A stretch of DNA of 64,000 nt from Trypanosoma brucei (taxonomy: Eukaryota): the NCBI GenBank assembly GCA_000002445.1, contig CP000071.1:1088001-1152000 (forward strand), in the 5' to 3' direction. A model generated the notes under the pieces. That model was not told where the DNA came from. It made no database searches and saw only the letters and a program-made list of their open reading frames with translations. The translations under genes and the position numbers were made by a program. Below, in pieces: positions 1-31,857 of the stretch. Each line of letters begins with the position of its first letter. Position 1 is the first letter of the stretch.

Positions 1-656
1 CAAACCCGTCGAGATACATCGAGTGGAGGGTAAATAAGAGGTACAAACACACATCTCCAGGTGTATAGAGAGAAATGTGTTGACGCTCCATCGGTTACCA
101 TTGGCATCCAGCTCGAATGGAAAAAAAAAGATAGCCACAAAAAGATAGGGAAAAGAAAGACAAGGGACCACTAAATCCTTTCCATCACAAACAAAAAAGG
201 TGTAGTCTGGAAAAAAAAATAGAAGAACACAGACGAAGTTGCGGTAACAAAATATAAAATAAGGTGCTTTCCTGACCCCAATAGGAAAACAACAACAACA
301 TAAAGAAAAAATCCACAAACGATATAAAAAAATTTTTCACGTGATAAGAGGAGAAAACTAAAGTCACAACCAAAAAGAAAATTCATCCACCATATTTGCT
401 TGGGGGAAAATCACATCCACACATGCGCAGAATATAGTCCACCTGCTCATAGAAGAAAAAAAAAACAGCCATAATAAAAAATAAAAACGTCTTTTCAAAA
501 ATATAAAAAAAATAAAGTCATGGTAAATAGAATTACTTTGCTTCACGTTCCCCTCTTCAATCTCTCCCATCAAATAATTCTCTATTACTAGCAGTGTACA
601 TACAGACACTGGTTGGAAACATATTTCCATGTGTAGTATCAAAATTACATCATACA

Positions 657-674
657 TACACACACACACACACG
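657..674. repeat. (CA)n microsatellite in duplicated 3' flank (paralogous copy at 5032..5049, one unit longer)
   Basis: cacacacacacacacg, read directly from the sequence. Confidence 0.9.
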
Positions 675-839
675 CATGCCATTGAAGAGCGTAGGAAGGA
701 AGAGGTTGCGATGGAAGGGGCGTGTCACTAAACATGTAAAAAAAAATGGTCACCGCAGAAAACGATATAGAACTCCCATTTGTAAGCCGCAATGATGGAT
801 CGATTCAGATATTGGTGATGGAAGGGTTTCGATATGGTT

Positions 840-2765
840 CTAATTGGCTGTGGGTTCCCGCCGTCTGGGAGAATCATTAGAGGGGGCATGAACATCCTCC
901 GCCTTCTTTGTAATAGCTTTGCCGTTTTCGTCAAGAACATCACATATACGTGCCGCAGGTATCAGTAAAAACACAAGAGGAATGTTGATGAGTGGAGTGC
1001 CAAAGTGACCAAGAAGTAGAAGCCACTTCACATTACTGAAGTCGCATGGACCCACCGTAATGTCTGATTGCACATTCCATACGTATTCCATCAAAAGCCA
1101 TCCAAGTGTGTTGGAAAGAGAACGGCCAAAATTAGCGAATCCTGCAAGTAATGCATACACCATACTTTCAGACCCACGGGGACAGAGCCTCGAAATGAGC
1201 ATTACAGTTGGCATGAAGTGCATCATGTAGCACACCTGGTGTATAATTTGGTCACCAAGAACGAATACAACGTGATCGCTAACATACGGACGGTTCCATC
1301 GCTCCACAATGATTATATCAAAGATACTCGAAACTATCTCAATCAAAGTTGTTACGATGAATGTTAGGCGATAGCTGCGCTTTGAGAATACGTATCTGAA
1401 TAACGTCACACCAATAACACCACCCACAGCTCCAATCATATTACCCACAGTGCTGTAGTAAAAGTATGAAAAGTTAGGACCACCAGGGAAACAATCGGGG
1501 GTCGCCATGAAGACATTGTCGATTGCGCCAGGAAGTTGGATGTACGCGACCCTCGAGATGAATGTGAACATATTTGCCTTCGCGATCACAAGTGGAAGAG
1601 CAACGAAACCGAGTCCACAGAGTGTAAATGACGCCACAACACTGGTTATTAGCAGCTGCAACCTTGTGCCAAGGACTGTCACGAGAACCATACCGATGGC
1701 GCCAAGTGTGAGAAGCATGCAGTAAAACACAACCTTCTTGTTGCGAGCAAACACTTCTCGATTCACTTCAAAGGCACCACAGCAACAAGGTAGTATCCGT
1801 GCTCCGCCCTCACCCACTTCCTCGGTATCCGATGGATTGTCCAGTGAGCCACTTGTTGCTTCGCTCCCCTGTAACCTCGCGGCGTCGGCTTCACGCTCCA
1901 GCTGCTCTTCCCGAATAATCTTCAGGTCGTACGCACGTTCCTCTCGGTTCTTCCGTTCACCATACCAATTCAGCATGAAGAATATCGTCGGCACCAACTG
2001 CATCCCAGCAGAGATAAACACAGCCACTCGCTGCAACCTCTTATCGGTAAGTGGTCCTACAATGGAGGACGCAACAAGGGAACCAGTTAGAACGCACCAC
2101 CAAACCCAACTCACAAGCGATGGGCCCGCCAATGGGACGCGGCGAATCAAGCGACTGTAATGCCCTTGTGTGAGGATATCAAGGTTAGCCTTGGTAAACG
2201 ACGTCACAAAAACCAGTATTCCGGCCACCGGTACATACGACAACTCTCCGGGCAGTGAACCGTACACAATAGCGAGGGTGGAACCCACCACACAGGATAG
2301 AGCGAGGTACCATCGCTTCGTGTACCCAAATAACGCAAAGAGGTCACTGAACATAGCTGCAAACGGCTTCACTGCGTAACCAAATGTAACCAAGCTACTC
2401 ATTCGTTGGTAAAGCTTTGCATCAGCACCAAAGGTGTAGGTAAACATTGGAAAAAGTGTGGTTCGAATGATGTTGTCAGCAATTCCTTTGCCGAAGAGCT
2501 CGGAGAGGCCAAGGGCGAGGACACATCTCGGTCCGAACGCTTCCACAGCAGTGCCGAATACGGGAATGCTCCACACGCATGGCAGCTTTCGGAACAAGGC
2601 CCTTGCGTCAGGGTGTACAGGACGAGCATCCATTGTTTCCTCTGCAGAGAGTTTGTGAGTTGTACACTCAGCTTCGTGAGCTTGGGGTGCGGAATGTTGA
2701 GGTGGTTGGTCCTGGCATGCGTTCGGTGACGTGGTCATTGCTGGTACTCGAATATGTTCCCACAA
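840..2765 (-). CDS. Polytopic membrane transporter, copy A of a tandem pair; tentatively folate/biopterin transporter (FBT/BT1, MFS-like) family
   Basis: 641-aa uninterrupted ORF with about 12 hydrophobic segments and a hydrophilic N-terminus. It is 97-98% identical to the ORF at 5216..7141. The family assignment comes from overall architecture and remembered synteny, not from a verified motif. Confidence 0.55.
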   Translation of the reverse strand: MWEHIRVPAMTTSPNACQDQPPQHSAPQAHEAECTTHKLSAEETMDARPVHPDARALFRKLPCVWSIPVFGTAVEAFGPRCVLALGLSELFGKGIADNIIRTTLFPMFTYTFGADAKLYQRMSSLVTFGYAVKPFAAMFSDLFALFGYTKRWYLALSCVVGSTLAIVYGSLPGELSYVPVAGILVFVTSFTKANLDILTQGHYSRLIRRVPLAGPSLVSWVWWCVLTGSLVASSIVGPLTDKRLQRVAVFISAGMQLVPTIFFMLNWYGERKNREERAYDLKIIREEQLEREADAARLQGSEATSGSLDNPSDTEEVGEGGARILPCCCGAFEVNREVFARNKKVVFYCMLLTLGAIGMVLVTVLGTRLQLLITSVVASFTLCGLGFVALPLVIAKANMFTFISRVAYIQLPGAIDNVFMATPDCFPGGPNFSYFYYSTVGNMIGAVGGVIGVTLFRYVFSKRSYRLTFIVTTLIEIVSSIFDIIIVERWNRPYVSDHVVFVLGDQIIHQVCYMMHFMPTVMLISRLCPRGSESMVYALLAGFANFGRSLSNTLGWLLMEYVWNVQSDITVGPCDFSNVKWLLLLGHFGTPLINIPLVFLLIPAARICDVLDENGKAITKKAEDVHAPSNDSPRRREPTAN

Positions 2766-3083
2766 GTATGAATGTTTGTCGCTATCGTTGCTTTGGCTTC
2801 GACTTTATCTCCAGAACAAAATGGAAGGGTTACCTTTTCGATACAGCGGGTAGAGGACAACATAGTGGCAGCACAAGAGAGCGGTTGAAGGAAAGAAATC
2901 GCAATGAACATTGAGAACGGAATCAGGCCGTCAAATAGCGCGTGAAACCACTGCAGCACTTGCTGGTACCGTACGTCAACTGGATACAAAGCGCTTTGCG
3001 GTATTGTATAATGTTACGCTTTGAAAGAATATACGGATACAAAACGCCTTTAAACAGTTGTAGATGAGGGTAGCAGTTATATA

Positions 3084-4247
3084 TTAAACTATTCTCCGGT
3101 CACGCTTCGCCATGACGCGCAATGCAGTTGCGCATTTTGTGTGAAGTGAGAGTAATGTCAGCATGAGGGCACAACTCTCACGCAAATTATGAGTAACGGA
3201 ATTGTCTTCACATCGTGTAGGCGGTGCTACAGGTGATGCAATGGAAGGAAGAACATCGCATATCTTCCCCACATGCCGCAGCACTTCGCTGTCGATGGGT
3301 ATGCAGCTACCCTGCTGACTGGCGGTGAGATACTTGATGACTACAAGCACCTGTCGCCTTAACAAACGAAGGGAACGTTGCACCCGCAGCAGGCGCTCCC
3401 ATGCCGTCGAGTTGCCACTCACATCCACGGAACCAGTGGGAACTGCACAAATGCCGGCAGAGGAAGCGTCCAACCCGACCCTTGTTATATCATCGGTTTC
3501 ACAAACATGCCGCACCCTCACCAGCTCAACCGCGAGTTGCGGCTTTTGGGGCAGCCTTATCGTAACATGATTTCCATAGTTTAGAGCACCAATGGGAATC
3601 AGAGGAGAGACGCCGCCGAGGAATCGGGTGGTACTTTCAGGTGTGGTGGTGGGAGCATCCTGGCATTGGGAGTCGGTTAAGTGAAATTGACGGACCTTTA
3701 ATGCGTACATTCGGGAGGAGGCAAATCCCACGGACTCACTGGTGTCAACGATCAACGCAAGCAACACAGTGGAGGGATGGTCTTCAATAATCTCACGAAT
3801 TCCGGTGTCGAAAACTGCACACCATCGGGCAGCGTCACTCAAGTTGCATCCGACGGCATACCAGCCAACCACGTGTAACCCCGGTAACACGTTAGCAACC
3901 TGCTCCCGTTTGCGCTTCATCGCCGGCCAATCAAGGGCAGACACGGCTCCGCTCTGTGATGAGCAGCTGTCAACGGCTTCGAACGACGTCGTGACCTCGC
4001 ATTCGTACACATCCGAAACGCTCCCCAAAAGAATGCCGGCTGCATATCTCCTTGACAACCGCACCCCATCCACTTCACGCATTCCGCGCCGCACCCTTGC
4101 AGCGTGCTTGGTAATGCTTAGCACTACCTGGGGATGAACATGAACGTACGTCGAGACGGCACACAATTCCCCACGACGAGCAGCCATCATTGGCACCCTG
4201 TACTTGAAGCACCAAAACACACACAACCGCTTACTAGCAAATGCCAC
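3084..4247 (-). CDS. MPN (JAB1/Mov34) domain protein lacking the JAMM metalloprotease motif (eIF3f/h-, CSN6- or Rpn8-like scaffold)
   Basis: 387-aa ORF. The N-terminal MPN-like core runs VHPQVVLSITKH...GILLGS...VTTSFEA and includes HVVGWYAVG, where the canonical HxHx7Sx2D zinc site is absent. The true start may be the internal Met at about 4190. The gene sits between the two transporter copies. Confidence 0.45.
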   Translation of the reverse strand: MAFASKRLCVFWCFKYRVPMMAARRGELCAVSTYVHVHPQVVLSITKHAARVRRGMREVDGVRLSRRYAAGILLGSVSDVYECEVTTSFEAVDSCSSQSGAVSALDWPAMKRKREQVANVLPGLHVVGWYAVGCNLSDAARWCAVFDTGIREIIEDHPSTVLLALIVDTSESVGFASSRMYALKVRQFHLTDSQCQDAPTTTPESTTRFLGGVSPLIPIGALNYGNHVTIRLPQKPQLAVELVRVRHVCETDDITRVGLDASSAGICAVPTGSVDVSGNSTAWERLLRVQRSLRLLRRQVLVVIKYLTASQQGSCIPIDSEVLRHVGKICDVLPSIASPVAPPTRCEDNSVTHNLRESCALMLTLLSLHTKCATALRVMAKRDRRIV

Positions 4248-4922
4248 AACCCTCCGTCCGCGTTGTGCTTACGGCTGCCCCTGCGTGCTAACACCCCTTA
4301 ATGGATTCGCGGGCCACCTATTACTGATGTCGACTCACGCACAGTAATACGGGAGTAAAATTATTAATAAGGTAAAATTTGCATCTGAGGTCGAGGCCAG
4401 GCAAGTAAGACGGGGAAAAAATGCAGGAATGGAGAAGGTAGAAAGTATGGAGACACACATTCCACAGTGTAGTACTAACACGTACAGATGTCCATGCAGA
4501 ACAGATCGCTCTCCCGCTTCACTCCCTGAGGCTCGGTCGACCGAAAATACATAAATGCAACCATGCAACGTTCTCCTTTTGTAATGAAAGGGATCACCAC
4601 CCTCACAAGAACAACAACAAGGGAACATCACACCACGTCGCCACTTGTGTCATGCAGGTGCTTGTTCAAAAATCGACATATTCGATAACACAGGTTAATA
4701 ATATTCCAAACAAAACGAAAAAAACCATAAGCAAATACGCAAACTACGTACCTCTACCCTCGGTTCAGTTGTGGCAAGGCATTTAAACACAAAAACCGCA
4801 ATTTCAGACTTCAAAAAGGGAAGTATAATAAAAGTAAAAAAAACAAATTTATTTCATTACAAAAAGGGATAAAGTAAATATAATCGTTTCAAGGCCGCGA
4901 GCACAAACAAACAAACCAGCGC

Positions 4923-7211
4923 TCCCCTCTTCAATCTCTCCCATCAAATAATTCTCTATTACTAGCAGTGTACATACAGACACTGGTTGGAAACATATTT
5001 CCATGTGTAGTATCAAAATTACATCATACATACACACACACACACACACGCATGCCATTGAAGAGCGTAGGAAGGAAGAGGTTGCGATGGAAGGGGCGTG
5101 TCACTAAACATGTAAAAAAAAATGGTCACCGCAGAAAACGATATAGAACTCCCATTTGTAAGCCGCAATGATGGATCGATTCAGATATTGGTGATGGAAG
5201 GGTTTCGATATGGTTCTAATTGGCTGTGGGTTCCCGCCGTCTGGGAGAATCATTAGAGGGGGCATGAACATCCTCCGCCTTCTTTGTAATAGCTTTGCCG
5301 TTTTCGTCAAGAACATCACATATACGTGCCGCAGGTATCAGTAAAAACACAAGAGGAATGTTGATGAGTGGAGTGCCAAAGTGACCAAGAAGTAGAAGCC
5401 ACTTCACATTACTGAAGTCGCATGGACCCACCGTAATGTCTGATTGCACATTCCATACGTATTCCATCAAAAGCCATCCAAGTGTGTTGGAAAGAGAACG
5501 GCCAAAATTAGCGAATCCTGCAAGTAATGCATACACCATACTTTCAGACCCACGGGGACAGAGCCTCGAAATGAGCATTACAGTTGGCATGAAGTGCATC
5601 ATGTAGCACACCTGGTGTATAATTTGGTCACCAAGAACGAATACAACGTGATCGCTAACATACGGACGGTTCCATCGCTCCACAATGATTATATCAAAGA
5701 TACTCGAAACTATCTCAATCAAAGTTGTTACGATGAATGTTAGGCGATAGCTGCGCTTTGAGAATACGTATCTGAATAACGTCACACCAATAACACCACC
5801 CACAGCTCCAATCATATTACCCACAGTGCTGTAGTAAAAGTATGAAAAGTTAGGACCACCAGGGAAACAATCGGGGGTCGCCATGAAGACATTGTCGATT
5901 GCGCCAGGAAGTTGGATGTACGCGACCCTCGAGATGAATGTGAACATATTTGCCTTCGCGATCACAAGTGGAAGGGCAACGAAACCGAGTCCACAGAGTG
6001 TAAATGACGCCACAACACTGGTTATTAGCAGCTGCAACCTTGTGCCAAGGACTGTCACGAGAACCATACCGATGGCGCCAAGTGTGAGAAGCATGCAGTA
6101 AAACACAACCTTCTTGTTGCGAGCAAACACTTCTCGATTCACTTCAAAGGCACCACAGCAACAAGGTAGTATCCGTGCTCCGCCCTCACCCACTTCCTCG
6201 GTATCCGATGGATTGTCCAGTGAGCCACTTGTTGCTTCGCTCCCCTGTAACCTCACGGCGTCGGCTTCATGCTCCAGCTTCTTTTCGCGAATAATCTTCA
6301 GGTCGTACGCACGTTCCTCTCGGTTCTTCCGTTCACCATACCAATTCAGCATGAAGAATATCGTCGGCACCAACTGCATCCCAGCAGAGATAAACACAGC
6401 CACTCGCTGCAACCTCTTATCGGTAAGTGGTCCTACAATGGAGGACGCAACAAGGGAACCAACCAAAAGGCACCACCAAACCCAACTCACAAGCGATGGG
6501 CCCGCCAATGGGACGCGGCGAATCAAGCGACTGTAATGCCCTTGTGTGAGGATATCAAGGTTAGCCTTGGTAAACGACGTCACAAAAACCAGTATTCCGG
6601 CCACCGGTACATACGACAACTCTCCAGGCAGTGAACCGTACACAATAGCGAGGGTGGAACCCACCACACAGGATAGAGCGAGGTACCATCGCCTCGTGTA
6701 CCCAAATAACGCAAAGAGGTCACTGAACATAGCTGCAAACGGTTTCACTGCGTAACCAAATGTAACCAAGCTACTCATTCGTTGGTAAAGCTTTGCATCA
6801 GCACCAAAGGTGTAGGTAAACATTGGAAAAAGTGAGGATCGAATGATGTTGTCAGCAATTCCTTTGCCGAAGAGCTCGCAGAAACCAAGGGCGAAAACAA
6901 ACTTCGGTCCGAACGCTTCCACAGCAGTGCCGAATACGGGAATGCTCCACACGCATGGCAGCTTTCGGAACAAGGCCCTTGCGTCAGGGTGTACAGGACG
7001 AGCATCCATTGTTTCCTCTGCAGAGAGTTTGTGAGTTGTACACTCAGCTTCGTGAGCTTGGGGTGCGGAATGTTGAGGCGGCTGGTCCTGGCATGCGTTC
7101 GGTGACGTGGTCATTGCTGGTACTCGAATATGTTCCCACAAGTATGAATGTTTGTCGCTATCGTTGCTTTGGCTTCGAGTTTATCTCCAGAACAAAATGG
7201 AAGGGTTACCT
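4923..7211. repeat. Tandem segmental duplication, unit B
   Basis: Direct alignment with 549..2835. Similarity is lost at both ends (4922/548 and 7212/2836). Confidence 0.9.
5216..7141 (-). CDS. Polytopic membrane transporter, copy B of the tandem pair (same family as 840..2765)
   Basis: 641-aa ORF collinear with copy A. It differs in a clustered patch, for example PRCVLALGLSE vs PKFVFALGFCE and REEQLEREADAAR vs REKKLEHEADAVR. The conserved downstream flank includes a (CA)n repeat. Confidence 0.55.
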   Translation of the reverse strand: MWEHIRVPAMTTSPNACQDQPPQHSAPQAHEAECTTHKLSAEETMDARPVHPDARALFRKLPCVWSIPVFGTAVEAFGPKFVFALGFCELFGKGIADNIIRSSLFPMFTYTFGADAKLYQRMSSLVTFGYAVKPFAAMFSDLFALFGYTRRWYLALSCVVGSTLAIVYGSLPGELSYVPVAGILVFVTSFTKANLDILTQGHYSRLIRRVPLAGPSLVSWVWWCLLVGSLVASSIVGPLTDKRLQRVAVFISAGMQLVPTIFFMLNWYGERKNREERAYDLKIIREKKLEHEADAVRLQGSEATSGSLDNPSDTEEVGEGGARILPCCCGAFEVNREVFARNKKVVFYCMLLTLGAIGMVLVTVLGTRLQLLITSVVASFTLCGLGFVALPLVIAKANMFTFISRVAYIQLPGAIDNVFMATPDCFPGGPNFSYFYYSTVGNMIGAVGGVIGVTLFRYVFSKRSYRLTFIVTTLIEIVSSIFDIIIVERWNRPYVSDHVVFVLGDQIIHQVCYMMHFMPTVMLISRLCPRGSESMVYALLAGFANFGRSLSNTLGWLLMEYVWNVQSDITVGPCDFSNVKWLLLLGHFGTPLINIPLVFLLIPAARICDVLDENGKAITKKAEDVHAPSNDSPRRREPTAN

Positions 7212-7827
7212 CGTTTTACTTTCACTATTGATTATGTTTCGTCGCCTCTTCCTCTTATTTTTTGATACTTATATGTTTATTTTTTGAGTTGTTAGTTTTA
7301 TTCTGTAACTTCTCCGTTATCCCCGTTGAGAGTGAACTGTTATTTAAAAATGTTTGTCCTGTTGCCGCTTTTTAGACATTTTCATTCACTTTTTTTGTGA
7401 CTTGGCAACCTTTTTCTTGTTACAAGTTTAGGTACACAGCCGGAGGTGTTTGTAATATTGCTGATTGTTTCAAGTTGCTGTACTCTTATTTTTTTTATTC
7501 GTTAGCAATGTTGTTTGCCTTCTTCTCTCTCGTCTCCTTTTTGTTGGTGCCCTTTGTTGGTTTTATTTGCCACTGTCTTTCTCTCCCTATTTTTTTTTTT
7601 GAAATGTATTAAAGTATCTACTCTCTCTAAGGAAGGTGCTCTGGGGATGAGAGAAAGAGAGAAAAGTAACTGCAAACCTTTATTTGAACTTCCAGTAACC
7701 AGTGAGGCGTGACTGAGAGGAGGAGGTTAAATTACACGCGGACATGCACAATACATTCGTTAACGTCAGCCACCATATCGTTAAGACAGCGAACGGAGTT
7801 GCGTAGGTGAGGAGTGTTGGTGTTGCA

Positions 7828-7857
7828 TTTTTTTTTTTTTTAGGGGGGGGGAGGGCG
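7828..7857. repeat. T14 followed by G9-A-GGG homopolymer block (C-run/A-run on the coding strand)
   Basis: tttttttttttttaggggggggggaggg. A similar G10-13 run is at 60777..60790. Confidence 0.85.
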
Positions 7858-8056
7858 ACGGTGACTACTCTTCTTTTTCTCCTCTTTAGTATTGAGCTTG
7901 GGATCAATGCTAACCTCCTCAGAAAACCGAACAGACAACATGCCATACTGTCACGTGACTGGAGGTTGAATCGCCGAAAAAAAGAAAACACAGCAGAAAC
8001 GGATCTCGCTTTTTTTTTAAAAAAAAAGAAAAGAACAAAAAAAACTCGCTGAGGCA

Positions 8057-10966
8057 CTACTTTTTCGACTCTGGCGTAACAACAGCTTGTTTCAGGGACT
8101 CCATAAACTTGACAATGGAGGCATCGTCAGTATATATAACGTCCGACAAATCTGACACGCCGTTTCCACCACGAGCACCACTGTGGTGTGTTGTTGTGGG
8201 ATTCATCCTCGTTTTGATGTGCCGCGCTTCCGATCCGTTAGCGTCTGTTCGCGAGAACCTCGGATACGGGTAACGCATGTCAAGCAGCATGGTGGCCTCG
8301 TTTTCTACTGTTTCAAGCAGCTGTGCGAAGTGGGCGTATTCGGGGTTATCTTGGTACCTCGCTTGTATCCAAGCAAATATAACAGTTCCCCACATAATAT
8401 GAATGTTGAAGAAAGCATCCATCAAGAGGATGTTGTCTGGTCGCAGACTGCAGCTATCAAGTGGAACCGCTGTTGCTGTTGGTGTTTCCATATCGTACGA
8501 GTGCAGCGTCGGTTGGATCATTAAAACACAATTATCTACAGATTCCCGCATTAGCCAGTGTCGCTTGAATGTCGACTCATCGGGTGATATATTAAGGACC
8601 ATGAAGTACTCTGAACGACGCAAGTTAAACACAAACGAAGGAAATAAGGTGAAGCACGGACGAAGTCGCAGCGACTCCGGGGAGCCAGGTGTGAACGAAC
8701 CGTAGCGTCGCACAAACCGCACAAGCACTGTGTCCAACCATCTTTTTGCATCGTTCCACTTGCTTGGATGCTTTTCCAATATGCTTACTGTCATGCGGGC
8801 GAGTACTGTGGCCGCACATGTCTGATCGAATGTGTCGTATTCAGAAAAATACTGCGGGTTAGCCGTGCTCACTCCATCAGCTGTTATTGTAACGGGGGCA
8901 ATGGGAAGTGCCACACTTGTCACGCGGATACGGGATTCGCCGAGTGGGGTGGTGAAATGCGTCACAAATTGTATGAAACGGTTTTGCTGCTGTTGCGGCA
9001 TACCATCCACTTTATTTAGTGTCGCTGTGTCAAAAACCACAGTGTATGTGGTTCCCTGGTCTATAGTACTAACACGCCAGTCTGTTGTCCCACCGACTCC
9101 AATTTCAATGGGCGAGATGGAAGCGCGGTGGGCTTTCGTTCCCGATGTTTTTTCCGCAGCCACACAAGGCCCTAAAACTCCAGAGACGAGTGTGTCGGCA
9201 GATGTGTGCACATGGAGTTTCACACCAAAACCGCTGTTAGCCACTAGAGCACCGGGGGCAGAACCATCAATATCACCAGCACTGCTAATACCACTGCTTT
9301 CGACGCCTGGGGGGCGAAGGTCACAGAGGTCAAAATACCGCTGAAGGGAAATAGTGAACATTTGGTGGTCGAATGTGTCACCACAGATGAAGGTACCACC
9401 CGTTTGGTCCACTGCCTGTCGCATTTCCAGTATGCCTATTTGATCAAAACTCTCGGCAAATACGCTAAGGCTTGCGTTCACATCTAAAAGACGTAGTTGT
9501 ATTTCGTTGTAGAATTTGAAGGCAGCTTCGTAGTAGGGTGTCTCACCCTCGATAATATCACGATGAAACCTCATCATGCTCTCCTTTTCAATGCTAACGA
9601 CGGTGCCCGGACCACGAGTACAAGGACCTCCAGTAAAGAGCAGCACCCGACCCGCCTTCCGTACGGGTGCCACACCAGCTGGCGCAGCGCCCGACATCTC
9701 CTTCTTTACAGGGACTTCGGGCAGGGCTTCAAGCAGTCGCACAGCGGCACTCACCGCCGTCCCAGTTGCTCTCAGAGGACGTTTATTAACGGGTGTCACT
9801 CCATCGTGGCACTGAAGTCCTTCAATGCTTGTTGTTAGTGTAAATTCACACTCCTCCAGTGGTACCAGGAAACGACCGCGAGCTGGGAGGCCATCATTCA
9901 GCTGCAACATATTCCCGAGCTCCGCAGTGGTATAGGCTCGATCGCCCCGTATGCTGTAACATCGTGACAGGGACGAACCGCTCAGATCCCACACAGATAC
10001 GCGAGCCCCAAATGAAACGAGCCCAATGAGCGATTGTGGGGGAAGCCAGTTGAGGCAGCGTTGGATGTTACACTTAAGGGCCTCTAGCTCTTCGACTGCG
10101 ATGCAAGTGTCAATAATGAACACAAACGTCGGAGAAAAGCCGACACCTCTCGTTGCCTGAGCTGTTGTGGGTTGCTCTAGTGGTAAAATGTACTCCACAG
10201 TGTCATTGTGTAGTGCAGGGTGTTCAGGTCTGTAGTGGGGTGGCAGCTGGTTACGGCGTTGGCACGAAAAACACACCCAAAACTTCCCCTCTTCCCTATA
10301 GCAGTGGTGGCTCCAGAACGCCCCACAGTTTTGGCATTGTTGACCACATGCCGTGGGATCGCCAATAACCATACGAGATGCATCGATGGGAAACAAAGGA
10401 GTGTACATGCAAGCGAGGGGGATAACCATCTCTGGAAGTGTGAGGGCTGCAGCAGAGGGCGCTTCCTGCTTTCCGTCACGGGTATGGTTTGGGTATGTGC
10501 TCCAAGTCCACCTCAAACCATTCTCATCAGTGCATTCCGCTGCTGGTGGTGGTGGCGGTACGTGGGAAGCAGTTGTAGCGGATGCGCCACTACCCGTCGG
10601 TGCGACCGCTCCGCCAACATGGGAAGCAGCAGCCGCTCCTACTGCCGTTGGTGGGGCAAACATGTTGGTGTCATTAGTGTTGGCAGGGTTATGTATACCT
10701 TGCTGAGGTGCGTATTGCTGCTGCCACGGCGTCTGGTTGGCATTATAATTGTAATTATTCATTTGCTGCTGCAACTGTGTGTACTGGTTCGAATACGTAC
10801 CCTCAGCGGTACCGCCCCCGTATTGAGCATTGTGGCCCTCCATGAGAGTAGCTGGGTCCTGATACGACACATAACCCTGCTTAACATCCTGGGTAGGATA
10901 CAACCCTTGATAATCCGCTTGCCGCGGGTAACCTCCGTAGGATTGCTGTGGTACGTGTCCTTGCAT
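8057..10966 (-). CDS. SEC23: COPII coat subunit Sec23 with an N-terminal low-complexity extension
   Basis: 969-aa ORF. The zinc-finger region CGQQCQNCGAFWSHHCYREEGKFWVCFSCQRRNQLPP matches the Sec23 LWACNFCxQRNxFPP pattern. FIQFVTHFTTPLGESRIRVTSVA matches the conserved Sec23 IQFxTxYQHxxGxxRIRVTT block. The first ~125 residues are rich in Q, Y, G and N. Confidence 0.75.
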   Translation of the reverse strand: MQGHVPQQSYGGYPRQADYQGLYPTQDVKQGYVSYQDPATLMEGHNAQYGGGTAEGTYSNQYTQLQQQMNNYNYNANQTPWQQQYAPQQGIHNPANTNDTNMFAPPTAVGAAAASHVGGAVAPTGSGASATTASHVPPPPPAAECTDENGLRWTWSTYPNHTRDGKQEAPSAAALTLPEMVIPLACMYTPLFPIDASRMVIGDPTACGQQCQNCGAFWSHHCYREEGKFWVCFSCQRRNQLPPHYRPEHPALHNDTVEYILPLEQPTTAQATRGVGFSPTFVFIIDTCIAVEELEALKCNIQRCLNWLPPQSLIGLVSFGARVSVWDLSGSSLSRCYSIRGDRAYTTAELGNMLQLNDGLPARGRFLVPLEECEFTLTTSIEGLQCHDGVTPVNKRPLRATGTAVSAAVRLLEALPEVPVKKEMSGAAPAGVAPVRKAGRVLLFTGGPCTRGPGTVVSIEKESMMRFHRDIIEGETPYYEAAFKFYNEIQLRLLDVNASLSVFAESFDQIGILEMRQAVDQTGGTFICGDTFDHQMFTISLQRYFDLCDLRPPGVESSGISSAGDIDGSAPGALVANSGFGVKLHVHTSADTLVSGVLGPCVAAEKTSGTKAHRASISPIEIGVGGTTDWRVSTIDQGTTYTVVFDTATLNKVDGMPQQQQNRFIQFVTHFTTPLGESRIRVTSVALPIAPVTITADGVSTANPQYFSEYDTFDQTCAATVLARMTVSILEKHPSKWNDAKRWLDTVLVRFVRRYGSFTPGSPESLRLRPCFTLFPSFVFNLRRSEYFMVLNISPDESTFKRHWLMRESVDNCVLMIQPTLHSYDMETPTATAVPLDSCSLRPDNILLMDAFFNIHIMWGTVIFAWIQARYQDNPEYAHFAQLLETVENEATMLLDMRYPYPRFSRTDANGSEARHIKTRMNPTTTHHSGARGGNGVSDLSDVIYTDDASIVKFMESLKQAVVTPESKK

Positions 10967-12891
10967 ATCAATGGAACGGTAGCCCCTTCCCCTTCACTTC
11001 CTTTTTCCTTCAAATTCAAAAGCGAACAAATGGCACTTCAGCTAGTTGCCCTCTTCTGTGAACTCACGGGATACAAACAGCCTTCTCTCGCTTCTTATTT
11101 TTACCAGAGGGACAGCTAACACACTTGTCCTATTGGTGTTTACTAATTCTGCTGAATCCTTCCAAAAAGGCTAAATACTCACACGTTACTTCACGTGCCG
11201 CTTCCGTCGCTACACCTTGTAGGGGGCAGCGCTGCACGCTTAGTCAACTCCGAGAGTTACAAGAAAAAAAAAAGGCAGCACCTTACAGAAAAGGGAAGAA
11301 AATCGTTTTAGTTTCCGGTTCTCACGGGTAGGAATAAAACATTTCTCGGCCCCTCCTCTCACCTTGTTCGACACTCAACCTCAAGAACTGCCTTTTACGG
11401 GAAAGAACTTGTGGCGCTTAATATTTGTGTTTGCAACAAGAATCGAACCTGGAGATGAGTGCACCGTACTCCCTCCCCACCACCACGCGTTCGTTTCTAT
11501 GTATTTGTACTCCCCTGGTGTATTTGTCCCTCCGCGTCAGCTCGATTAGTGTGCTGGCTGAATTTGCTCAGTCTATCACCGCCCAACAAAAGAAAGAATA
11601 CCACAGAAGTATAACTTGGGGGAGGTCCAAACAGTGTAGAGCGACGCATCTTAGAGGTGAAGGAAGTAAACCACACCAATGGCAATAAGAGAAAGGTCGA
11701 AGAAAAAGAAACGACCACTTGTTCCATTTCCTCTGATTCCTGTGCCTAATGCTCCATACCCCTCCTCCAACCGTCTCGTCTTTTGAATTCTCCGTTCTCC
11801 TTTTCCCTCTTTGTTAAAACTCAGAAGAGACATGATCTAATTTTCGTGCGCCAAAGGCACTGCGCAGGACGGTGGCGCTGAAAAGTAATACAGCAACATC
11901 AAACACCAGCGACAAGAGCACCGCGATCTCTCATTTCCTGCTGAAGCTATTTTATTTCTTTTACCTTTTCCCTCACCATCCTGCCTTTGGGTGTGAAAGT
12001 GGTATCTACACCTCCCTTCACGCACTAAAGATAATAAAGCGAAATACAAAAGGCAGAAGGGAGGGGGAAAAAAAAAAAGGAACATTGGGCCTGTACAAAG
12101 CGTTTTTAAAACACACACATGCACAAATAAATGCATCTTCTGACGGAAGTGGCTGCATGGGCAAAGAGTGAGGGAGGGAGGGAAAGGTGAAAAGGAAAGG
12201 GGGGACGAAGAAGGGGCACGACGTAGCGCCAGCGGGAACTGGAAGCAGGAAAAAATTGATGGGAGGTAAGAGACGCAGGAGAATGTACGAAACAAAAGGA
12301 GAAAAACAGGAAACAAAACCAACATTATTCAGTTTTGTTTCCCTCCATTCTTCATACAATGCTCAAATAGTTTCCTTCCTTCCCATATACATGCTACCCC
12401 ACTCTGAGACGTCACGCCATACATCAACTTTCATTTCTATCACCATTCATATGTATGTGCGGTTTTGTCGACTGACAAAAACAAAAACAAGAGGAAAGCG
12501 CAGAAATCATAATTATTTTCCCATAATCCTCACTAAGCGAAAAATAAGGTAAACAAACAATCACCTTCAATTAAGATAATATCATATCTTCTATCAGTGT
12601 AGACCCTCTTACCATCTACATTTGACACAACGTCGGTGAATGGCCTTATCCACGCCTAAACCGTGCATTTCACCCACTAAAGTCACTACCCTCATGAAAC
12701 TACACGCGTATATATTCGCAGAGGCGTCCATAGTCAGGTGAGCGAAATGCACATAACCGATCCTTTTCGTGTCGCAGAGCCCCGCATGGTTCGGTTTTGG
12801 GAGCGCTTTGTGGAGGAAAGCAGCTGATCATATATAATCACGCACAAGCAGCAGTTTCCTCGCTCCAACCGTACCATACGCACACAAACCG

Positions 12892-14829
12892 TTAATCACG
12901 ACTTATAGCGAAACGTAACAACTCATCTCCTGACGAAACTACGACTACGTCCTGATCGTTCGAGCTCCCATTTCGTTTCGTGCCAACCACCTCACCGCCA
13001 CCGAACTCCACCACACGTTGCAGCATCGTTTTCACCACTCCTTCCGGCATTGTCAAAAGAAACCGTTGACATCTTAACGGTGGCGGGAAGTACCGGAGTC
13101 CGCCCTCAACTTCCTCATCCAACCAGAAACCGGCACCGAGTGAATCAAACACATATGACGGCTGAACTAACCATTTTGAGGACACAACACCGCACAACGC
13201 TTTCACGCTCCGTGGGGGACCACGGAGAACAATATGTGTTGTGTTCAGCGGAAGAATTTCATCTACCTTGTTATCAACAAGGACCGCGCGCTGACCGAGT
13301 TTCTGGATCGCCTCCATCACACTGTTCCGTTCCTTTTCTGTTAGACTCGTCGTAATAAAGTAACGTGGCTGCACTGCCCCTCGCTTCGGATCGACAGGAG
13401 AAGGGGAACGAGTGGACCCTCCAACAGCAGAGGAGGCACCGCTCACTGGGCGAAACGGTCGGCGGAGTCCACGACTACTTGGAGTTGCCATCAGTGCAGA
13501 ACCGCTCGATGATGCGACGGGGGAAAGACCTCCTGTGCGTTGACGGAGCGCTACCGCGCCAGATCTCGGCTGCATTTGAACACTTTCACTTCGTTGTTGC
13601 TGGAACTGTTGCCGACTGTTGCTCACAGCTTCCACTAGAGTGCACGCAGCCGATGTATAAGAGGTTTGTGCACGCAAGATGTTGGAACCAACCGCAGGTT
13701 GATACCCCATGCCGTCGAGGCACGTCTGTTGTGCCTCCGCCGTCGGCGAATTGAGTTCCTTCTTCACCACAGGAGAACCTTTTTTGACGTATTCATCCGT
13801 TTCGGAAATCCTGTCGGCTACAGTATAGCTGGGGGTGCGGGGATTCCGCTTCTTGAGGGGTCTGGTGGGAGTCGTGGAAACAGTGCCCTCGCGCTCTCGT
13901 TTCACTGAGTGACTGTTTTTAGTGGTGACTGGTGCGGACCTGTCGTCGCTGGTGGTGGCACTCATCCACGCATTCCCATCGGGGTGTGGAAGTGTGTACG
14001 GTTGATTCGGTCCACTACCAGATGATGTTGTGGTTAATCCTCTGGTGTGATTTACAGTATTAGAAAGCGGTTGCCCTGAGGTGGTAGATACGGAATTACC
14101 CCCGCCAACATTATTGGCACAAACAGCCGTCTGGTAGTTCCTAGCGGCAGTTACCAACTCCTGTGCACTTACCAACTTCCGCACTGCGGCTTCATGCGTC
14201 TGTGTGAGGGATTTTATCTTTAATTCATAGTTTTTTTTCATCTCATGAACCTCTAAGTTATGTTGAGTTGCGTGTTTCTCTAATGCGCTCTCTTTCTCCT
14301 CAACAACCCCCTGTAGATGTCCTATCGTTCGCTTAAGTCTCGCCACTTCCTCTTCAAGATCAAGGACACGCTGCGTATCGACGACGGGTTCACTCCTCTT
14401 CCCTTGTCTCCGGTGTGATTGCTTCTCTAGTTCTTTGTAGCGAGCCATGAGCCGCTCATAACGCTCAACAGAAACGACGCCATATTTCCCTACATCGCTT
14501 TTGCTGTCACCACGCGACTGTAAGTTACTGCTTTCAGACGCAGTTGCCACTGGTGAGGGCCAGCGAGTTTGCTGACGTGGGGGTTCAACATTTAAGCCAC
14601 CTGCCATGAGAGAAGATGCTGCTCCCATATCTGTTGTAGCCGTATTTTGCAGTGTGCGCGGCTGGGGGCATAACGCAGCAATTTGTTCTAGACCCACCCC
14701 TCCAGGGCGGGCACCAGTGGCACCATCACCATGTCCAGGTGACAGAAGTGCTAAAATTCCCTGCATCTGAGTAATCAGCTGGGGATTAGATGCGAGTTGC
14801 TGTAGCACAGACAGTGGATTGTCTCCCAT
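12892..14829 (-). CDS. Hypothetical protein with a central coiled coil and a C-terminal BRCT domain
   Basis: 645-aa ORF. Heptad-rich segment ERYERLMARYKELEKQ...LEEEVARLKRTIGHLQGVVEEKESALEK. The C-terminus HIVLRGPPRSVKALCGVVSSKWLVQPSYVFDSLGAGFWLDEE fits the BRCT fold signature (W...S.....G...DE). Confidence 0.5.
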   Translation of the reverse strand: MGDNPLSVLQQLASNPQLITQMQGILALLSPGHGDGATGARPGGVGLEQIAALCPQPRTLQNTATTDMGAASSLMAGGLNVEPPRQQTRWPSPVATASESSNLQSRGDSKSDVGKYGVVSVERYERLMARYKELEKQSHRRQGKRSEPVVDTQRVLDLEEEVARLKRTIGHLQGVVEEKESALEKHATQHNLEVHEMKKNYELKIKSLTQTHEAAVRKLVSAQELVTAARNYQTAVCANNVGGGNSVSTTSGQPLSNTVNHTRGLTTTSSGSGPNQPYTLPHPDGNAWMSATTSDDRSAPVTTKNSHSVKREREGTVSTTPTRPLKKRNPRTPSYTVADRISETDEYVKKGSPVVKKELNSPTAEAQQTCLDGMGYQPAVGSNILRAQTSYTSAACTLVEAVSNSRQQFQQQRSESVQMQPRSGAVALRQRTGGLSPVASSSGSALMATPSSRGLRRPFRPVSGASSAVGGSTRSPSPVDPKRGAVQPRYFITTSLTEKERNSVMEAIQKLGQRAVLVDNKVDEILPLNTTHIVLRGPPRSVKALCGVVSSKWLVQPSYVFDSLGAGFWLDEEVEGGLRYFPPPLRCQRFLLTMPEGVVKTMLQRVVEFGGGEVVGTKRNGSSNDQDVVVVSSGDELLRFAISRD

Positions 14830-15246
14830 CCTTATTCCTCTGATCTAGCCCCCTTTTGCTGTTGTGTAACTAAAATAGAAAGCGTAAGCAAAAAAAAAAG
14901 AAAATATTCGTCGAGATACTCACGTAAACACATGGATAAGAACAAGTGCAACTGATTTCACACATGGAAATATATGCGTACACACAGCAACCATATATTT
15001 CGCCCTTTGTGTTGTTTCCCCTCCCCTTCTCATCTAATGAGATGCCTTTGTTCTTTCCTCCTTCCTTCCCTTTGGAATCCCCTTTACGCCCATTCACCCA
15101 CGTGCGCACAAGGGTGCAAACTCGTGTTTATACACATATAGCCACATTATATGCGGTGTTTGGTATATAACATATACTCCCTGCTTATTCCTTTCTTTCA
15201 TCCACCCATTTAATTTCTCTTCGTCTTGGCAGGAATGCATATAAAC

Positions 15247-15264
15247 ATATATATATATATATAT
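15247..15264. repeat. (TA)9 microsatellite
   Basis: Direct reading. Confidence 0.9.
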
Positions 15265-16949
15265 TTGAATGATGCTCAGTTAAATGCATGGAATAATAAG
15301 TACTTCATCCAACCTTCATCCACTACGGCTTCGGTTCGCGCTCGCCCACCAACAACTTTGTCCCCTTCTTTTTTGCTTCCTGTTTTGAAGGAAAAAAAGA
15401 GGCCCATGCCGTATAAATAAATAAACACCAGTAACATCCGAACGGTGTGGTGGGAACACCAAGAAAATAAACAAATAAACACGAGTGCGAAGAACAGCAA
15501 AAAAAGGGGAAAAAATAAATTAGTTGATAAATAAATATAACAAGAATGGAAAAGAGACCGACGCGTAAATGGATGAGGGAAGGAAAAGGAAAGGAAGATG
15601 TAACACTCAGTGGAATAAAGAAATCATTCCATACTCCCGGATCGCCACACGTAAATAAATTGAAGAACAAACAGTGCATAAAGAAGATAAGAACCCTTTG
15701 CTGAACGACAAGCAGCGGGGGAGGGGAGGGGGGCGGAATCGGAAATGCGGTGGTGGTACCAAACAGAGCCGCGGAGTTCGATAAAGCACCGAGTGAGTTA
15801 TTACCTTCACTTGGCCACTTGAGGCGACACTGTGGAGAGGGAAGCAAAAAAATCAGCAAAAAAGAAAGCGAAAGGAAGTGAAAGAAAGAAAAATTCATCG
15901 AACGGAAAAATAATTTTAATGACAATAATAACAATAACAATAATAATAATAATAATGACGAACACGCTTTCGGGTGAACAGGCGGAATGATTTGCGGGAA
16001 CGAAACGGGGGAGAGGGAAGAAATGGGACACTCCCCAACACAACATTAGATATTGTCTGACAAGAACGACAACAACAACAGCAGCAGCAAAGCACACACT
16101 CCGAGCCAACAGAAGAAAAAAGGGCGGGTGGAGGCCTAAAGATCGCATATGACGGGCGAACCAAAAACAACAACAACACAAAAATAAGATGGATCTCTAC
16201 AAAGAGACAACAAATGTGCTTGAGAAGTTGTACATTTGCATGTGTGACCCTCACAAGTAATCGAACAAGGGCAAAAATGAAGGGGTGGGGATGGAAACGT
16301 GGAAATGAGGCAACAGTGCCCCCCTACTAACAGAGGAGAAAAAAAAAAACGGCAACACATACGAATTTACATCGTTATGTGAACTCCTCCATCCCTTCCC
16401 TTTTTCGTTGAGTTCTGGAATCCGTCCACATAATTCCAGGGCCTCTGTTCCAAACCATACTTCTTGGTTAGATCCAAGACAAAGACAAAACAACGACAAA
16501 ATATCTGTCTTTTTTTTCTCCCTCCCCTCTTGCGTCGTTGACACGGTTACCATTCCTTCCCTCCATGAATACCTGCCCAGCCCCTGTACCTTCACTTTGC
16601 TTCTCAACAGTTCACAGCATCACTTGAACCAATACAAAATATGAGGGATCCCCTCACCCCTTCTCTTCTCCGTCCCTTTCACTGTCTCAGTCTACGCGAG
16701 TGTCAGCAGATTAGTCACAACATTTCCCACATATTCGATGTAAATGTGTGCTACATGCATATGCAATAAACAAACAAGTATATATAACACTGATTATGAA
16801 AACGTGAACAAACAAACTCACATACAGATATACATACATACACACACACACTTGTACTGCTAACGCTTCCTCACTTCCAAATCATCCATGATATCGTTCC
16901 TCAGTGCATATCTGCCGTTACCAAAGCCGTGTACCCCACTTTTAAACCT

Positions 16950-31690: not shown

Positions 31691-31833
31691 AACGCGATTA
31701 AAAGCACTGTACCTAAGCAACTTTTTCTTTTGATGTGGGCTCTGTACAAAGCGCCCTTTCGTTCCCGACGAGAGCACATGAAATAAGACGAAGAAAGAAG
31801 CTGTGTGGTTAAACTGGAAAGGCACTTGAGTAT

Positions 31834-31857
31834 CATATATATATATATATATATATA
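31834..31857. repeat. (TA)12 microsatellite in the 5' region of the PCD-like gene
   Basis: Direct reading. Confidence 0.9.

What the first reader, a model, noticed from the sequence alone, without database searches (positions are those of the whole stretch)
549..7211. Tandem 2.3 kb duplication of a transporter gene with a mosaic (gene-conversion-like) divergence pattern
Two 641-aa transporter ORFs (840-2765 and 5216-7141) lie in direct repeats 4376 bp apart. Most of the unit, including about 290 bp downstream and about 70 bp upstream of the ORF, is essentially identical. Nearly all amino-acid differences cluster in one patch: residues about 80-300, PRCVLALGLSE vs PKFVFALGFCE, TT vs SS, CVLTG vs CLLVG, EEQLEREADAAR vs EKKLEHEADAVR. 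That patch includes a cytosolic-loop segment. A pattern of long homogenised tracts plus a divergent island is what repeated gene conversion produces in a tandem family. The patch could mark functional divergence of substrate or regulation between the paralogues. If these are folate/biopterin-type carriers, copy number and variant patches matter for antifolate and pterin biology.
Basis: partly seen in the sequence, partly recalled or inferred. Interest (0 to 1): 0.55.

Follow-up and report, generated by a model that had tools for sequence, protein, structure and literature searches.

The report
Trypanosome folate transporter gene copies
These are two of the three already published folate-transporter genes (TbFT2 and TbFT3) of Trypanosoma brucei; gene conversion keeps them almost identical, and the one divergent patch is where TbFT3 carries the sequence of the third copy, TbFT1, which lies just outside the window.

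Summary
Window 546-2835 and 4920-7211 are direct repeats: 28 mismatches plus a 2-bp (CA)n indel in about 2.29 kb. 23 of the 28 mismatches lie in 649 bp, and one tract of 1050 bp has none (p about 5e-6).

The ORFs are BT1/FBT-family MFS transporters. They are identical to T. brucei TREU927 Tb927.8.3630 (TbFT2) and Tb927.8.3650 (TbFT3), published as antifolate uptake genes. The real proteins are 632 aa from an ATG, not 641. The array is interrupted by an MPN/CSN6-like gene, so it is not strictly head-to-tail. A third copy, TbFT1, lies just beyond the window start.

Gene conversion is supported. FT2 and FT3 within one genome differ at 0-1 of 1029 sites in the 3' part, whereas orthologues differ at 6-7. 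Sixteen strain-specific sites are shared by both paralogues. At least 8 recombination events are needed.

The "divergent island" did not arise by new divergence. At 13 of the 14 amino-acid differences FT3 carries the FT1 residue, while FT2 carries the ESAG10/outgroup residue. dN/dS in the island is 0.6, so positive selection is not shown.

The locus is already known, and this behaviour is typical of T. brucei gene arrays. Interest is low.

The parts
546..2835 (-). Repeat copy 1: the TbFT2 unit. It holds the CDS, 97 bp upstream of the ATG and 294 bp downstream of the stop.
   Evidence: Local alignment and mismatch list; blastn 98.7% identity over 2292 columns.
4920..7211 (-). Repeat copy 2: the TbFT3 unit.
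840..2738 (-). TbFT2 coding sequence (Tb927.8.3630), 632 aa plus stop. It is a BT1/FBT-family MFS transporter.
   Evidence: The translation is identical to P0087/AAZ13128. Pfam BT1 E 1.1e-158. AF2 model and MFS fold matches.
5216..7114 (-). TbFT3 coding sequence (Tb927.8.3650), 632 aa plus stop.
   Evidence: The translation is identical to P0001/AAZ13130. Pfam BT1 E 2.9e-158.
546..1878 (-). Homogenised tract, copy 1 (partner 4920-6254): the 3' 1039 nt of the CDS plus 294 bp of 3' flank. It has 2 mismatches and one (CA)n indel.
   Evidence: For nt 871-1899, FT2 versus FT3 differ at 1/1029 sites in TREU927 and 0/1029 in T. b. gambiense, against 6-7/1029 between orthologues.
1879..2527 (-). Divergent island, copy 1 (partner 6255-6903). 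It holds 23 of the 28 mismatches, at codons 71-287 in 632-aa numbering.
6835..6903 (-). FT1-type tract in FT3 (nt 212-280 from the ATG, aa 71-94, helix TM1; FVFALGFC...SS). The partner in FT2, 2459-2527, carries the ESAG10/outgroup-like CVLALGLS...TT.
   Evidence: The triplet analysis gives 10 consecutive FT1-type sites. The difference is paralogue-specific in both TREU927 and gambiense. Protein table; helix 70-102 in the model.
6462..6469 (-). Short FT1-type tract in TREU927 FT3 (nt 646-653; aa 216 and 218 in helix TM5). It is absent from gambiense FT3. Partner in FT2: 2086-2093.
   Evidence: FT3-only sites that equal FT1.
6255..6287 (-). FT1-type tract in FT3 (nt 828-860; aa 278-287, in the helix of the central TM6-TM7 loop). 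Partner in FT2: 1879-1911.
3084..4190 (-). Unrelated gene inside the unique spacer (2836-4919): a JAB/MPN-domain protein, Tb927.8.3640, 368 aa. It is listed in the literature as a CSN6 candidate.
   Evidence: Pfam JAB and MitMem_reg. A 368-aa orthologue sits in the same position in gambiense, T. equiperdum and T. vivax. PMC4513851.
4296..4559 (-). 264-bp segment downstream of FT3. In T. b. gambiense its second copy lies downstream of FT1, not of FT2. It marks FT3 plus its flank as a copy taken from the FT1 end of the array.
   Evidence: 99.6% identity in L001, 8180-8443 versus 16268-16531.
2836..3019 (-). Upstream flank of FT2. It is shared with FT1 (281 bp in all) but not with FT3.

Best explanation
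The window carries two of the three chromosome-8 folate transporter genes of Trypanosoma brucei TREU927: TbFT2 (Tb927.8.3630) and TbFT3 (Tb927.8.3650). TbFT1 lies about 630 bp beyond the window start.

Each gene encodes a 632-aa, 12-helix MFS carrier of the folate-biopterin transporter (BT1/FBT) family. Together the three copies mediate folate and classical antifolate uptake, as published RNAi work shows.

Inferred history of the locus:
- The ancestor had one FT gene between the MPN/CSN6-like gene and an AKAP7-like gene, as T. vivax still has.
- An in-place duplication gave FT2 and FT1.
- A copy of the FT1-end gene, with its downstream flank, was placed between Sec24 and the MPN gene. That copy is FT3.

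Since then, repeated short-tract non-allelic gene conversion among the copies has homogenised most of FT3 with FT2. This covers the 3' 1.0 kb of the CDS plus about 300 bp of flank. FT1-type tracts remain in the 5' third of FT3, at nt 212-280, 646-653 and 828-860.

So the island of FT2/FT3 differences is a set of conversion-tract boundaries between two old haplotype classes. It is not recent divergence.

Shown here: the identity of the genes, their family and fold, the mosaic structure, and concerted evolution. Inferred: the direction and order of events, and that the tracts arose by conversion rather than by double crossovers.
For: Identity and family:
- The translations equal AAZ13128 and AAZ13130.
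- Pfam BT1 E 1e-158; AF2 pLDDT 81.5 with MFS-only PDB matches.
- PMC5114424 describes FT1-3 as a tandem array of 96% nucleotide identity, interrupted by Tb927.8.3640. Knockdown of FT1-3 reduces folate transport and methotrexate and raltitrexed susceptibility.

Mosaic:
- Among 40 residues that vary among TREU927 FT1-3, FT3 equals FT1 at 13, equals FT2 at 26, and is private at 1. All 13 FT1-type residues lie among the 14 FT2/FT3 differences.
- At DNA level, the FT1-type and FT2-type sites in FT3 form far fewer runs than chance would give: 17 runs in TREU927 and 5 in gambiense, permutation p about 1e-5.
- 327 of 630 informative site pairs fail the four-gamete test, and Rm = 8.

Concerted evolution:
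- 16 sites at which both paralogues agree within a genome but differ between TREU927 and gambiense, against 13 paralogue-specific sites confined to nt 212-280, nt 828-832 and nt -97.
- In the 3' part, FT2 and FT3 differ at 0-1 of 1029 sites, against 6-7 between orthologues.

Old haplotypes: dS is 0.14 in codons 68-100 and 0.004 in codons 301-632.

Locus history: synteny in T. vivax and the pattern of shared flanks.
Against: - The DNA of TREU927 FT1 could not be fetched. The DNA triplet tests therefore use gambiense FT1 as a proxy. Only the protein comparison uses TREU927 FT1.
- Only two well-resolved genomes with all copies were available.
- The gambiense assembly could be partly collapsed across near-identical repeats, which would inflate within-genome identity.
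- The T. equiperdum assembly has two copies and the Logan contig looks chimeric, so they were not used as primary evidence.
- Direction of transfer and non-reciprocity cannot be read from end-point sequences.
- The persistence of the TM1 block in both subspecies could reflect selection rather than a purely neutral conversion boundary.
Confidence: 0.85

Rival explanations
1. A recent whole-unit duplication was followed by fast, selection-driven divergence of one patch. On this view the island is new functional divergence between FT2 and FT3, for example in substrate or regulation.
For: The differences cluster in TM1, TM5 and the central loop. 14 of 23 changed codons change the amino acid. The TM1 block is kept paralogue-specific in two subspecies.
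Against: - The island states are not new. FT3's residues are those of FT1, and FT2's are those of ESAG10 and the outgroups.
- dN/dS is 0.6 in the island and 0.72 in the TM1 block, not above 1.
- dS in the TM1 block is 0.14, about 30 times that of the 3' half. This means old lineages, not fast protein evolution.
- The tracts differ between subspecies: nt 646-653 is FT1-type in TREU927 FT3 but FT2-type in gambiense FT3.
Confidence: 0.05
2. Conversion homogenises the copies, but the TM1 block (FVFALGFC...SS versus CVLALGLS...TT) is held apart by selection. The two forms would be functionally different transporter subtypes, and each genome would need both.
For: - The block is paralogue-specific and identical in TREU927 and gambiense, although homogenised sequence lies on both sides of it.
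[quoted passage not shown] In T. equiperdum the types sit in swapped positions.
- The FT1/FT3 form replaces residues that are common across 38 homologues: C72 in 24 of 38 and L78 in 20 of 38.
Against: - No direct functional data separate the copies; the RNAi in PMC5114424 hits all three.
- dN/dS is below 1.
- 10 differences in 69 bp would themselves hinder heteroduplex formation, so a neutral barrier explains persistence equally well.
- Only three genomes were examined, one of them of doubtful assembly.
Confidence: 0.25
3. The long identical tracts are an assembly artefact: repeat collapse, or consensus calling across two near-identical copies or alleles.
For: The copies are 2.3 kb long and more than 98% identical, which is hard for shotgun assembly. 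The T. equiperdum assembly shows two copies with a 1-nt gap in one. A short-read contig looks chimeric.
Against: - The same block structure is seen in TREU927 and in the independently sequenced gambiense DAL972 genome. Each has its own strain-specific bases, present in both copies.
- The island and the distinct flanks are resolved in both assemblies.
- PMC5114424 treats FT1-3 as three genes.
Confidence: 0.05
4. The clustering reflects only uneven constraint or mutation rate: the 3' two-thirds of the gene simply cannot vary.
For: The C-terminal half is the more conserved part across the family.
Against: The same 1029 nt differ at 6-7 sites between subspecies and at 17-24 sites from FT1. The identical tract also runs through 294 bp of non-coding 3' flank.
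Confidence: 0.02

Closest known systems
TbFT1-3 folate transporter array of Trypanosoma brucei (Tb927.8.3620, .3630, .3650; Dewar et al. 2016, PMC5114424)
   Same: This is that locus. The two window proteins are identical to the .3630 and .3650 products. The interrupting gene is Tb927.8.3640 and the neighbour is Sec24. The paper already reports a tandem arrangement with 96% nucleotide identity and an unrelated gene in between.
   Different: Nothing differs in the sequence. The paper does not describe the block-wise mosaic (FT3 as an FT1/FT2 chimera), and it does not separate the function of individual copies.
ESAG10 (folate/biopterin transporter homologue in telomeric VSG expression sites of T. 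brucei)
   Same: It belongs to the BT1 family and is 91% identical to FT2. ESAG10 proteins carry the FT2 residue at all 14 FT2/FT3-variable positions. They carry FT1-type residues at aa 114-119 and 530-585, so they belong to the same mosaic pool. Published work derives ESAG10 from a conserved core locus; its rate table pairs ESAG10 with Tb927.8.3620 (PMC3605285).
   Different: ESAG10 is telomeric, has a 54-aa N-terminal extension (686 aa), and is transcribed only from the active expression site. It is not in this window. Exchange with FT2 is only hinted at, from protein data.
Concerted evolution of tandem gene arrays in T. brucei (Jackson 2007, PMC1855330)
   Same: That survey reports the same behaviour: duplicates evolve in concert; variation from different parts of an array gives inconsistent phylogenies; and structural heterogeneity allows homogenisation and differentiation within one locus.
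   Different: The main text does not mention this array. Here an unrelated gene splits the array, and the split-off copy (FT3) is still being homogenised with FT2.
Leishmania FBT family (FT1, FT5, BT1)
   Same: Same Pfam family, at 40-47% identity. They are folate, methotrexate or biopterin carriers of the MFS type (as described in PMC5114424).
   Different: Leishmania has about 14 diverged members with distinct substrates and kinetics. The T. brucei copies are 96-99% identical, and no functional difference between them is known.
T. congolense FT2 array (TcIL3000.A.H_000597400, 597500, 597700)
   Same: It consists of three tandem, 97.8-98.4% identical genes (bioRxiv 10.1101/2020.07.28.224543). 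T. congolense FT2 is 73% identical in protein to TbFT2. So paralogues are far closer within each species than orthologues are between species.
   Different: The gene numbering suggests one intervening gene, as in T. brucei. The DNA could not be fetched, so the arrangement was not checked here.

Membership tests
Folate-biopterin transporter (BT1/FBT, Pfam PF03092) family | A match to the BT1 profile above the curated cut-off, over the full profile length | tested here: met
   529 and 527.6 bits (cut-off 22), profile positions 1-431 of 432, for both ORFs.
Folate-biopterin transporter (BT1/FBT, Pfam PF03092) family | An MFS-type fold: two six-helix bundles joined by a central loop | tested here: met
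   The AF2 model has pLDDT 81.5 and pTM 0.81. Long helices lie on either side of a loop at 256-333 that contains a helix at 264-290 and a disordered stretch at 292-311. All top Foldseek PDB matches are MFS transporters at probability 1.00. This is a predicted structure, not a solved one. No sequence relative is in the PDB.
Folate-biopterin transporter (BT1/FBT, Pfam PF03092) family | Transport of folate, antifolate or pterin | not testable with these tools
   Literature only: knockdown of FT1-3 together lowers folate and methotrexate uptake (PMC5114424). The activity of FT2 or FT3 alone has not been separated.
TbFT1-3 locus of T. brucei chromosome 8 | Protein identity to the annotated products and the same gene order (Sec24, FT3, MPN gene, FT2, FT1) | tested here: met
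   Exact identity to AAZ13128 and AAZ13130. Window 1-12000 is collinear with T. b. gambiense chromosome 8 at 98.7%, with gene order as.
Gene family under concerted evolution by gene conversion | Paralogues within a genome are more alike than orthologues between genomes | tested here: met
   nt 871-1899 differ at 0-1 of 1029 sites within a genome, against 6-7 between genomes; 16 strain-specific sites are shared by both paralogues.
Gene family under concerted evolution by gene conversion | Phylogenetic signal changes block-wise along the sequence, more than chance would give | tested here: met
   Runs tests p about 1e-5. 327 of 630 site pairs are incompatible and Rm = 8. Longest identical tract p 5e-6.
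Gene family under concerted evolution by gene conversion | Non-reciprocal transfer (conversion rather than crossover), with a known donor and recipient | not testable with these tools
   End-point sequences from two genomes cannot show direction or reciprocity. The short internal tracts (8-70 bp) flanked by the other type favour conversion, but this is an inference.
Strict head-to-tail tandem duplication | Repeat units abut, with no unrelated gene between them | tested here: not met
   2084 bp of unique DNA carrying the JAB/MPN gene separates the two repeats. T. vivax has MPN then a single FT, so FT3 is a dispersed copy.

The most novel reading that the evidence does not exclude
The TM1 block (aa 71-94: KFVFALGFC...SS in FT1 and FT3, RCVLALGLS...TT in FT2 and ESAG10) may be a selectively maintained pair of transporter subtypes that resists homogenisation. 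The subtypes could differ in substrate or drug recognition, for example folate versus pterin, antifolates, or low-affinity diamidine uptake. T. brucei would need one of each. Occasional exchange with telomeric ESAG10 would feed the FT2 type.
Probability: 0.2. Interest if true: 0.4.

Novelty: already known. Interest (0 to 1): 0.2.

Why it matters
Trypanosomes cannot make folate, and these carriers are the entry route for classical antifolates. Copy number and variant residues therefore bear on drug uptake and resistance.

This analysis adds a precise map. It shows which parts of FT2 and FT3 are kept identical and which short tracts separate two old sequence types (the TM1 block, two TM5 residues, and the central-loop helix). 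That map gives a small, defined set of residues to swap if anyone wants to test whether the three copies differ in function.

As genome biology it is a clean but expected example of concerted evolution in a T. brucei gene array.

Tried and rejected
- Fetching TREU927 DNA for FT1 by exact-protein look-up failed for P0088, P0087 and P0001. T. b. gambiense FT1 DNA and the TREU927 FT1 protein were used instead.
- The T. cruzi homologue (P0007) lies in a non-syntenic context and did not help with locus history.
- The Logan contig L003 carries a mosaic copy, but its first 2044 nt do not match the locus. It was treated as possibly chimeric and left out of the main tests.
- The T. equiperdum assembly has only two copies, one with a 1-nt gap. 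It was used only as supporting evidence.
- A sequence search of the PDB found no relative, so the fold was tested on a predicted model instead.
- Jackson 2007 was searched for this array; the main text does not mention it.
I could therefore not tell whether the variable TM1 and TM5 residues face the transport cavity or the lipid.
- The positive-selection reading was rejected: dN/dS is 0.43 overall and 0.6-0.72 in the island.
- The uneven-constraint reading was rejected because the identical tract varies between genomes and differs from FT1.
Full report
**Observation.** The ORF list shows two 641-aa minus-strand ORFs at 840-2765 and 5216-7141. A local alignment gives two direct repeats, 546-2835 and 4920-7211, with 28 mismatches and one 2-bp indel. 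blastn reports 98.7% identity over 2292 columns and finds no other copy in the window. This is also the only large repeat in the 64 kb. The indel is a (CA)n length difference.

The mismatches are strongly clustered. 23 of 28 lie in 1879-2527, which is 649 of 2290 bp (binomial p 5e-9). The longest mismatch-free tract is 1050 bp (permutation p 5e-6). In 200-bp bins, 746-1545 has no mismatch, while 2346-2545 has eleven.

**What the genes are.** Both ORFs match Pfam BT1 over the whole profile at E about 1e-158. A protein search returns T. brucei TREU927 'folate transporter, putative' at 98% identity, ESAG10 at 91%, T. congolense FT2 at 73%, and many trypanosomatid folate/biopterin transporters at 40-60%.

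The cluster holds three TREU927 proteins with consecutive accession numbers and three T. b. gambiense proteins. Translated from the ATG nine codons inside the tool's TTG start, the window ORFs are identical to AAZ13128 and AAZ13130, each 632 aa. By the gene order in PMC5114424 these are Tb927.8.3630 (FT2) and Tb927.8.3650 (FT3). The window is therefore TREU927 chromosome 8.

The ORF between them (3084-4190 from its ATG) is a JAB/MPN protein. It is Tb927.8.3640, listed as a CSN6 candidate in PMC4513851. The next gene, 8057-10966, is a Sec24 homologue.

PMC5114424 describes FT1-3 as a tandem array with 96% nucleotide identity, interrupted by Tb927.8.3640. FT1-3 are the strongest hits in genome-wide RNAi screens with methotrexate and raltitrexed. 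Their knockdown lowers folate uptake.

**Fold.** No sequence relative has a solved structure. An AlphaFold2 model built on a 42-sequence alignment has mean pLDDT 81.5 and pTM 0.81. It shows long helices on either side of a central loop at residues 256-333. All the top Foldseek matches in the PDB are MFS transporters at probability 1.00, including SPNS2, POT peptide transporters, XylE, GLUT1 and FLVCR1.

The FT2/FT3 differences map onto the model as follows (632-aa numbering):

| Residues | Location in the model |
|---|---|
| 71, 72, 74, 78, 79, 93, 94 | helix 70-102 (TM1) |
| 141 | GYTKRWY loop before helix 142-160 |
| 216, 218 | helix 202-232 (TM5) |
| 278, 279, 282, 287 | helix 264-290 of the central loop |

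By general MFS topology the central loop is cytosolic. That last point is an inference.

**The third copy.** The T. b. gambiense DAL972 locus (L001) has the order Sec24, FT3, MPN, FT2, FT1, AKAP7-like gene. Window 1-12000 is collinear with it at 98.7% and ends 631 bp short of the FT1 start codon. None of it is inside the window.

**What the divergent island is.** I aligned TREU927 FT1 (protein P0088), FT2 and FT3 with ESAG10 proteins and outgroups. 40 residues vary among the three TREU927 copies. FT3 equals FT2 at 26 of them, equals FT1 at 13, and is private at one (K141R). Those 13 are exactly 13 of the 14 FT2/FT3 differences. So the island is where FT3 carries FT1-type sequence.

FT2's residues at all 14 positions are those of most ESAG10 proteins. 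In the TM1 block they are also those of T. congolense and T. cruzi (K/R-C-V-L-A-L-G-L-S). In the wider family, C72 and L78 are the commonest residues. The FT1/FT3 form (F72, F74, F78, C79) is therefore the derived one.

The DNA alignment of the two TREU927 units, three gambiense units and two T. equiperdum units shows two sequence types per block, combined differently in each copy. I took FT3 as the 'child' sequence and FT1 (gambiense) and FT2 as the 'parents':
- TREU927 FT3 has FT1-type tracts at nt 212-280, 646-653 and 828-860.
- Gambiense FT3 has FT1-type tracts at nt 33-280 and 828-832.
- Both have far fewer runs than shuffled orders give (p about 1e-5).

Among five well-resolved sequences, 327 of 630 pairs of informative sites fail the four-gamete test. 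At least 8 recombination events are needed.

**Concerted evolution.**
- In nt 871-1899, FT2 and FT3 differ at 1 of 1029 sites in TREU927 and at 0 of 1029 in gambiense.
- Orthologues differ at 6-7 sites over the same stretch, and FT1 differs from either copy at 17-24 sites.
- Across the whole unit there are 16 sites where both paralogues agree within a genome but differ between genomes.
- Only 13 sites are paralogue-specific in both genomes. They are confined to nt 212-280, nt 828-832 and nt -97.

Both subspecies have the same three-copy arrangement with the same flanks. The shared strain-specific sites therefore require transfer between copies after the lineages split. Uneven constraint cannot explain the identical tract, because that tract varies between genomes and extends through 294 bp of non-coding flank.

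Synonymous divergence is 0.14 in codons 68-100 and 0.004 in codons 301-632. dN/dS is 0.43 overall, 0.6 in codons 60-300 and 0.72 in the TM1 block. The island thus reflects old lineages that survive in patches, not fast protein evolution.

**History of the locus (inferred).** T. vivax has Sec24, MPN, one FT and the AKAP7-like gene. FT2 and FT1 therefore sit at the ancestral site, and FT3 is a copy placed upstream of the MPN gene. The flanks in gambiense are shared as follows:
- All three copies share 97 bp upstream and 192 bp downstream.
- FT1 and FT2 share 281 bp upstream.
- FT2 and FT3 share about 300 bp downstream.
- A 264-bp segment further downstream of FT3 (window 4296-4559) recurs at 99.6% downstream of FT1 only.

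This fits FT3 having begun as a copy of the FT1-end gene with its flank, and then being largely overwritten by FT2-type sequence. The reverse is also possible: an FT2-derived copy that later received FT1 tracts. Both are conversion mosaics.

The shared 97 bp upstream begin at a pyrimidine-rich stretch followed by AG. I read this as the trans-splicing signal, but I did not test it.

T. congolense is reported to have three tandem, 97.8-98.4% identical FT2 genes, while its protein is only 73% identical to TbFT2. This suggests long-term homogenisation in both species. I could not fetch that DNA.

**Comparison with what is known.** The locus, its family, its arrangement and its role in antifolate uptake are published. 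Concerted evolution with incongruent segments is the reported norm for T. brucei arrays. ESAG10's origin from a conserved core locus is also published; that paper's rate table pairs ESAG10 with Tb927.8.3620. I did not find the block-level mosaic of FT3 in the papers I could search, but it is an expected detail.

**Caveats.**
- Only two genomes resolve all the copies.
- Collapse in the gambiense assembly cannot be excluded.
- T. equiperdum shows two copies with the TM1 types in swapped positions, and one short-read contig looks chimeric.
- No data separate the function of the individual copies.

**Verdict.** The feature is already known and is ordinary for this organism.

What remains open is whether the TM1 block is kept apart by selection. 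Each genome examined keeps both types, but the block's own divergence (10 differences in 69 bp) could by itself hinder conversion.

Noticed in passing
window 6693 (FT3) vs 2317 (FT2): K141R (632-aa numbering) is private to TREU927 FT3. It sits in the GYTKRWY loop motif, where all 38 other trypanosomatid homologues in the alignment have K. It is the only FT2/FT3 amino-acid difference not explained by FT1-type sequence.
   Followed up: partly
window 1879 and 1894 (FT2 codons 287 and 282): TREU927 FT2 has R282 and A287. These are absent from all three T. b. gambiense copies but present in most ESAG10 proteins. FT2 equals ESAG10 at all 14 FT2/FT3-variable residues. This hints at exchange between the core locus and telomeric ESAG10, but only protein data were available.
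   Followed up: partly
window 4296-4559; L001 8180-8443 and 16268-16531: A 264-bp segment lies just upstream of the MPN/CSN6-like gene. In T. b. gambiense it is duplicated at 99.6% downstream of FT1, upstream of the AKAP7-like gene. The two unrelated genes may therefore share upstream processing signals.
   Followed up: partly
L002 (T. equiperdum) 10001-11899 and about 14394-16290: This assembly has only two FT copies. The copy at the FT3 position carries the FT2-type TM1 block. The other copy is mostly FT1-type with a 1-nt gap and is annotated as a 251-aa fragment. This is either a real copy loss by unequal exchange or an assembly problem.
   Followed up: partly
L003 (Logan contig ERR7929156_654) 1-2044: The contig carries a mosaic FT copy with 264 bp of FT3-type upstream flank. 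Its first 2044 nt, which include a methyltransferase-like ORF, match nothing in the locus. It is either a chimeric assembly or an unplaced extra copy.
   Followed up: partly
window 30881-31909 (-): An ORF with a pterin-4a-carbinolamine dehydratase domain (Pfam Pterin_4a, E 4.6e-8) lies in the same run of minus-strand genes, about 24 kb from the folate transporters.
   Followed up: no
window 840-63768: Nineteen of the twenty ORFs of 250 aa or more are on the minus strand, which fits one polycistronic transcription unit. The one plus-strand ORF (10220-11119) overlaps the Sec24 gene antisense and is probably not a gene.
   Followed up: no
window about 655-670 and 5029-5046: The only indel between the two repeat units is a one-unit length difference in a (CA)n run in the shared 3' flank.
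   Followed up: yes
window 2765 and 7141; 4247: The ORF tool's TTG and GTG starts (bacterial code) over-extend these eukaryotic genes. The annotated proteins start at ATG 2738 and 7114 (632 aa) and at 4190 (368 aa).
   Followed up: yes
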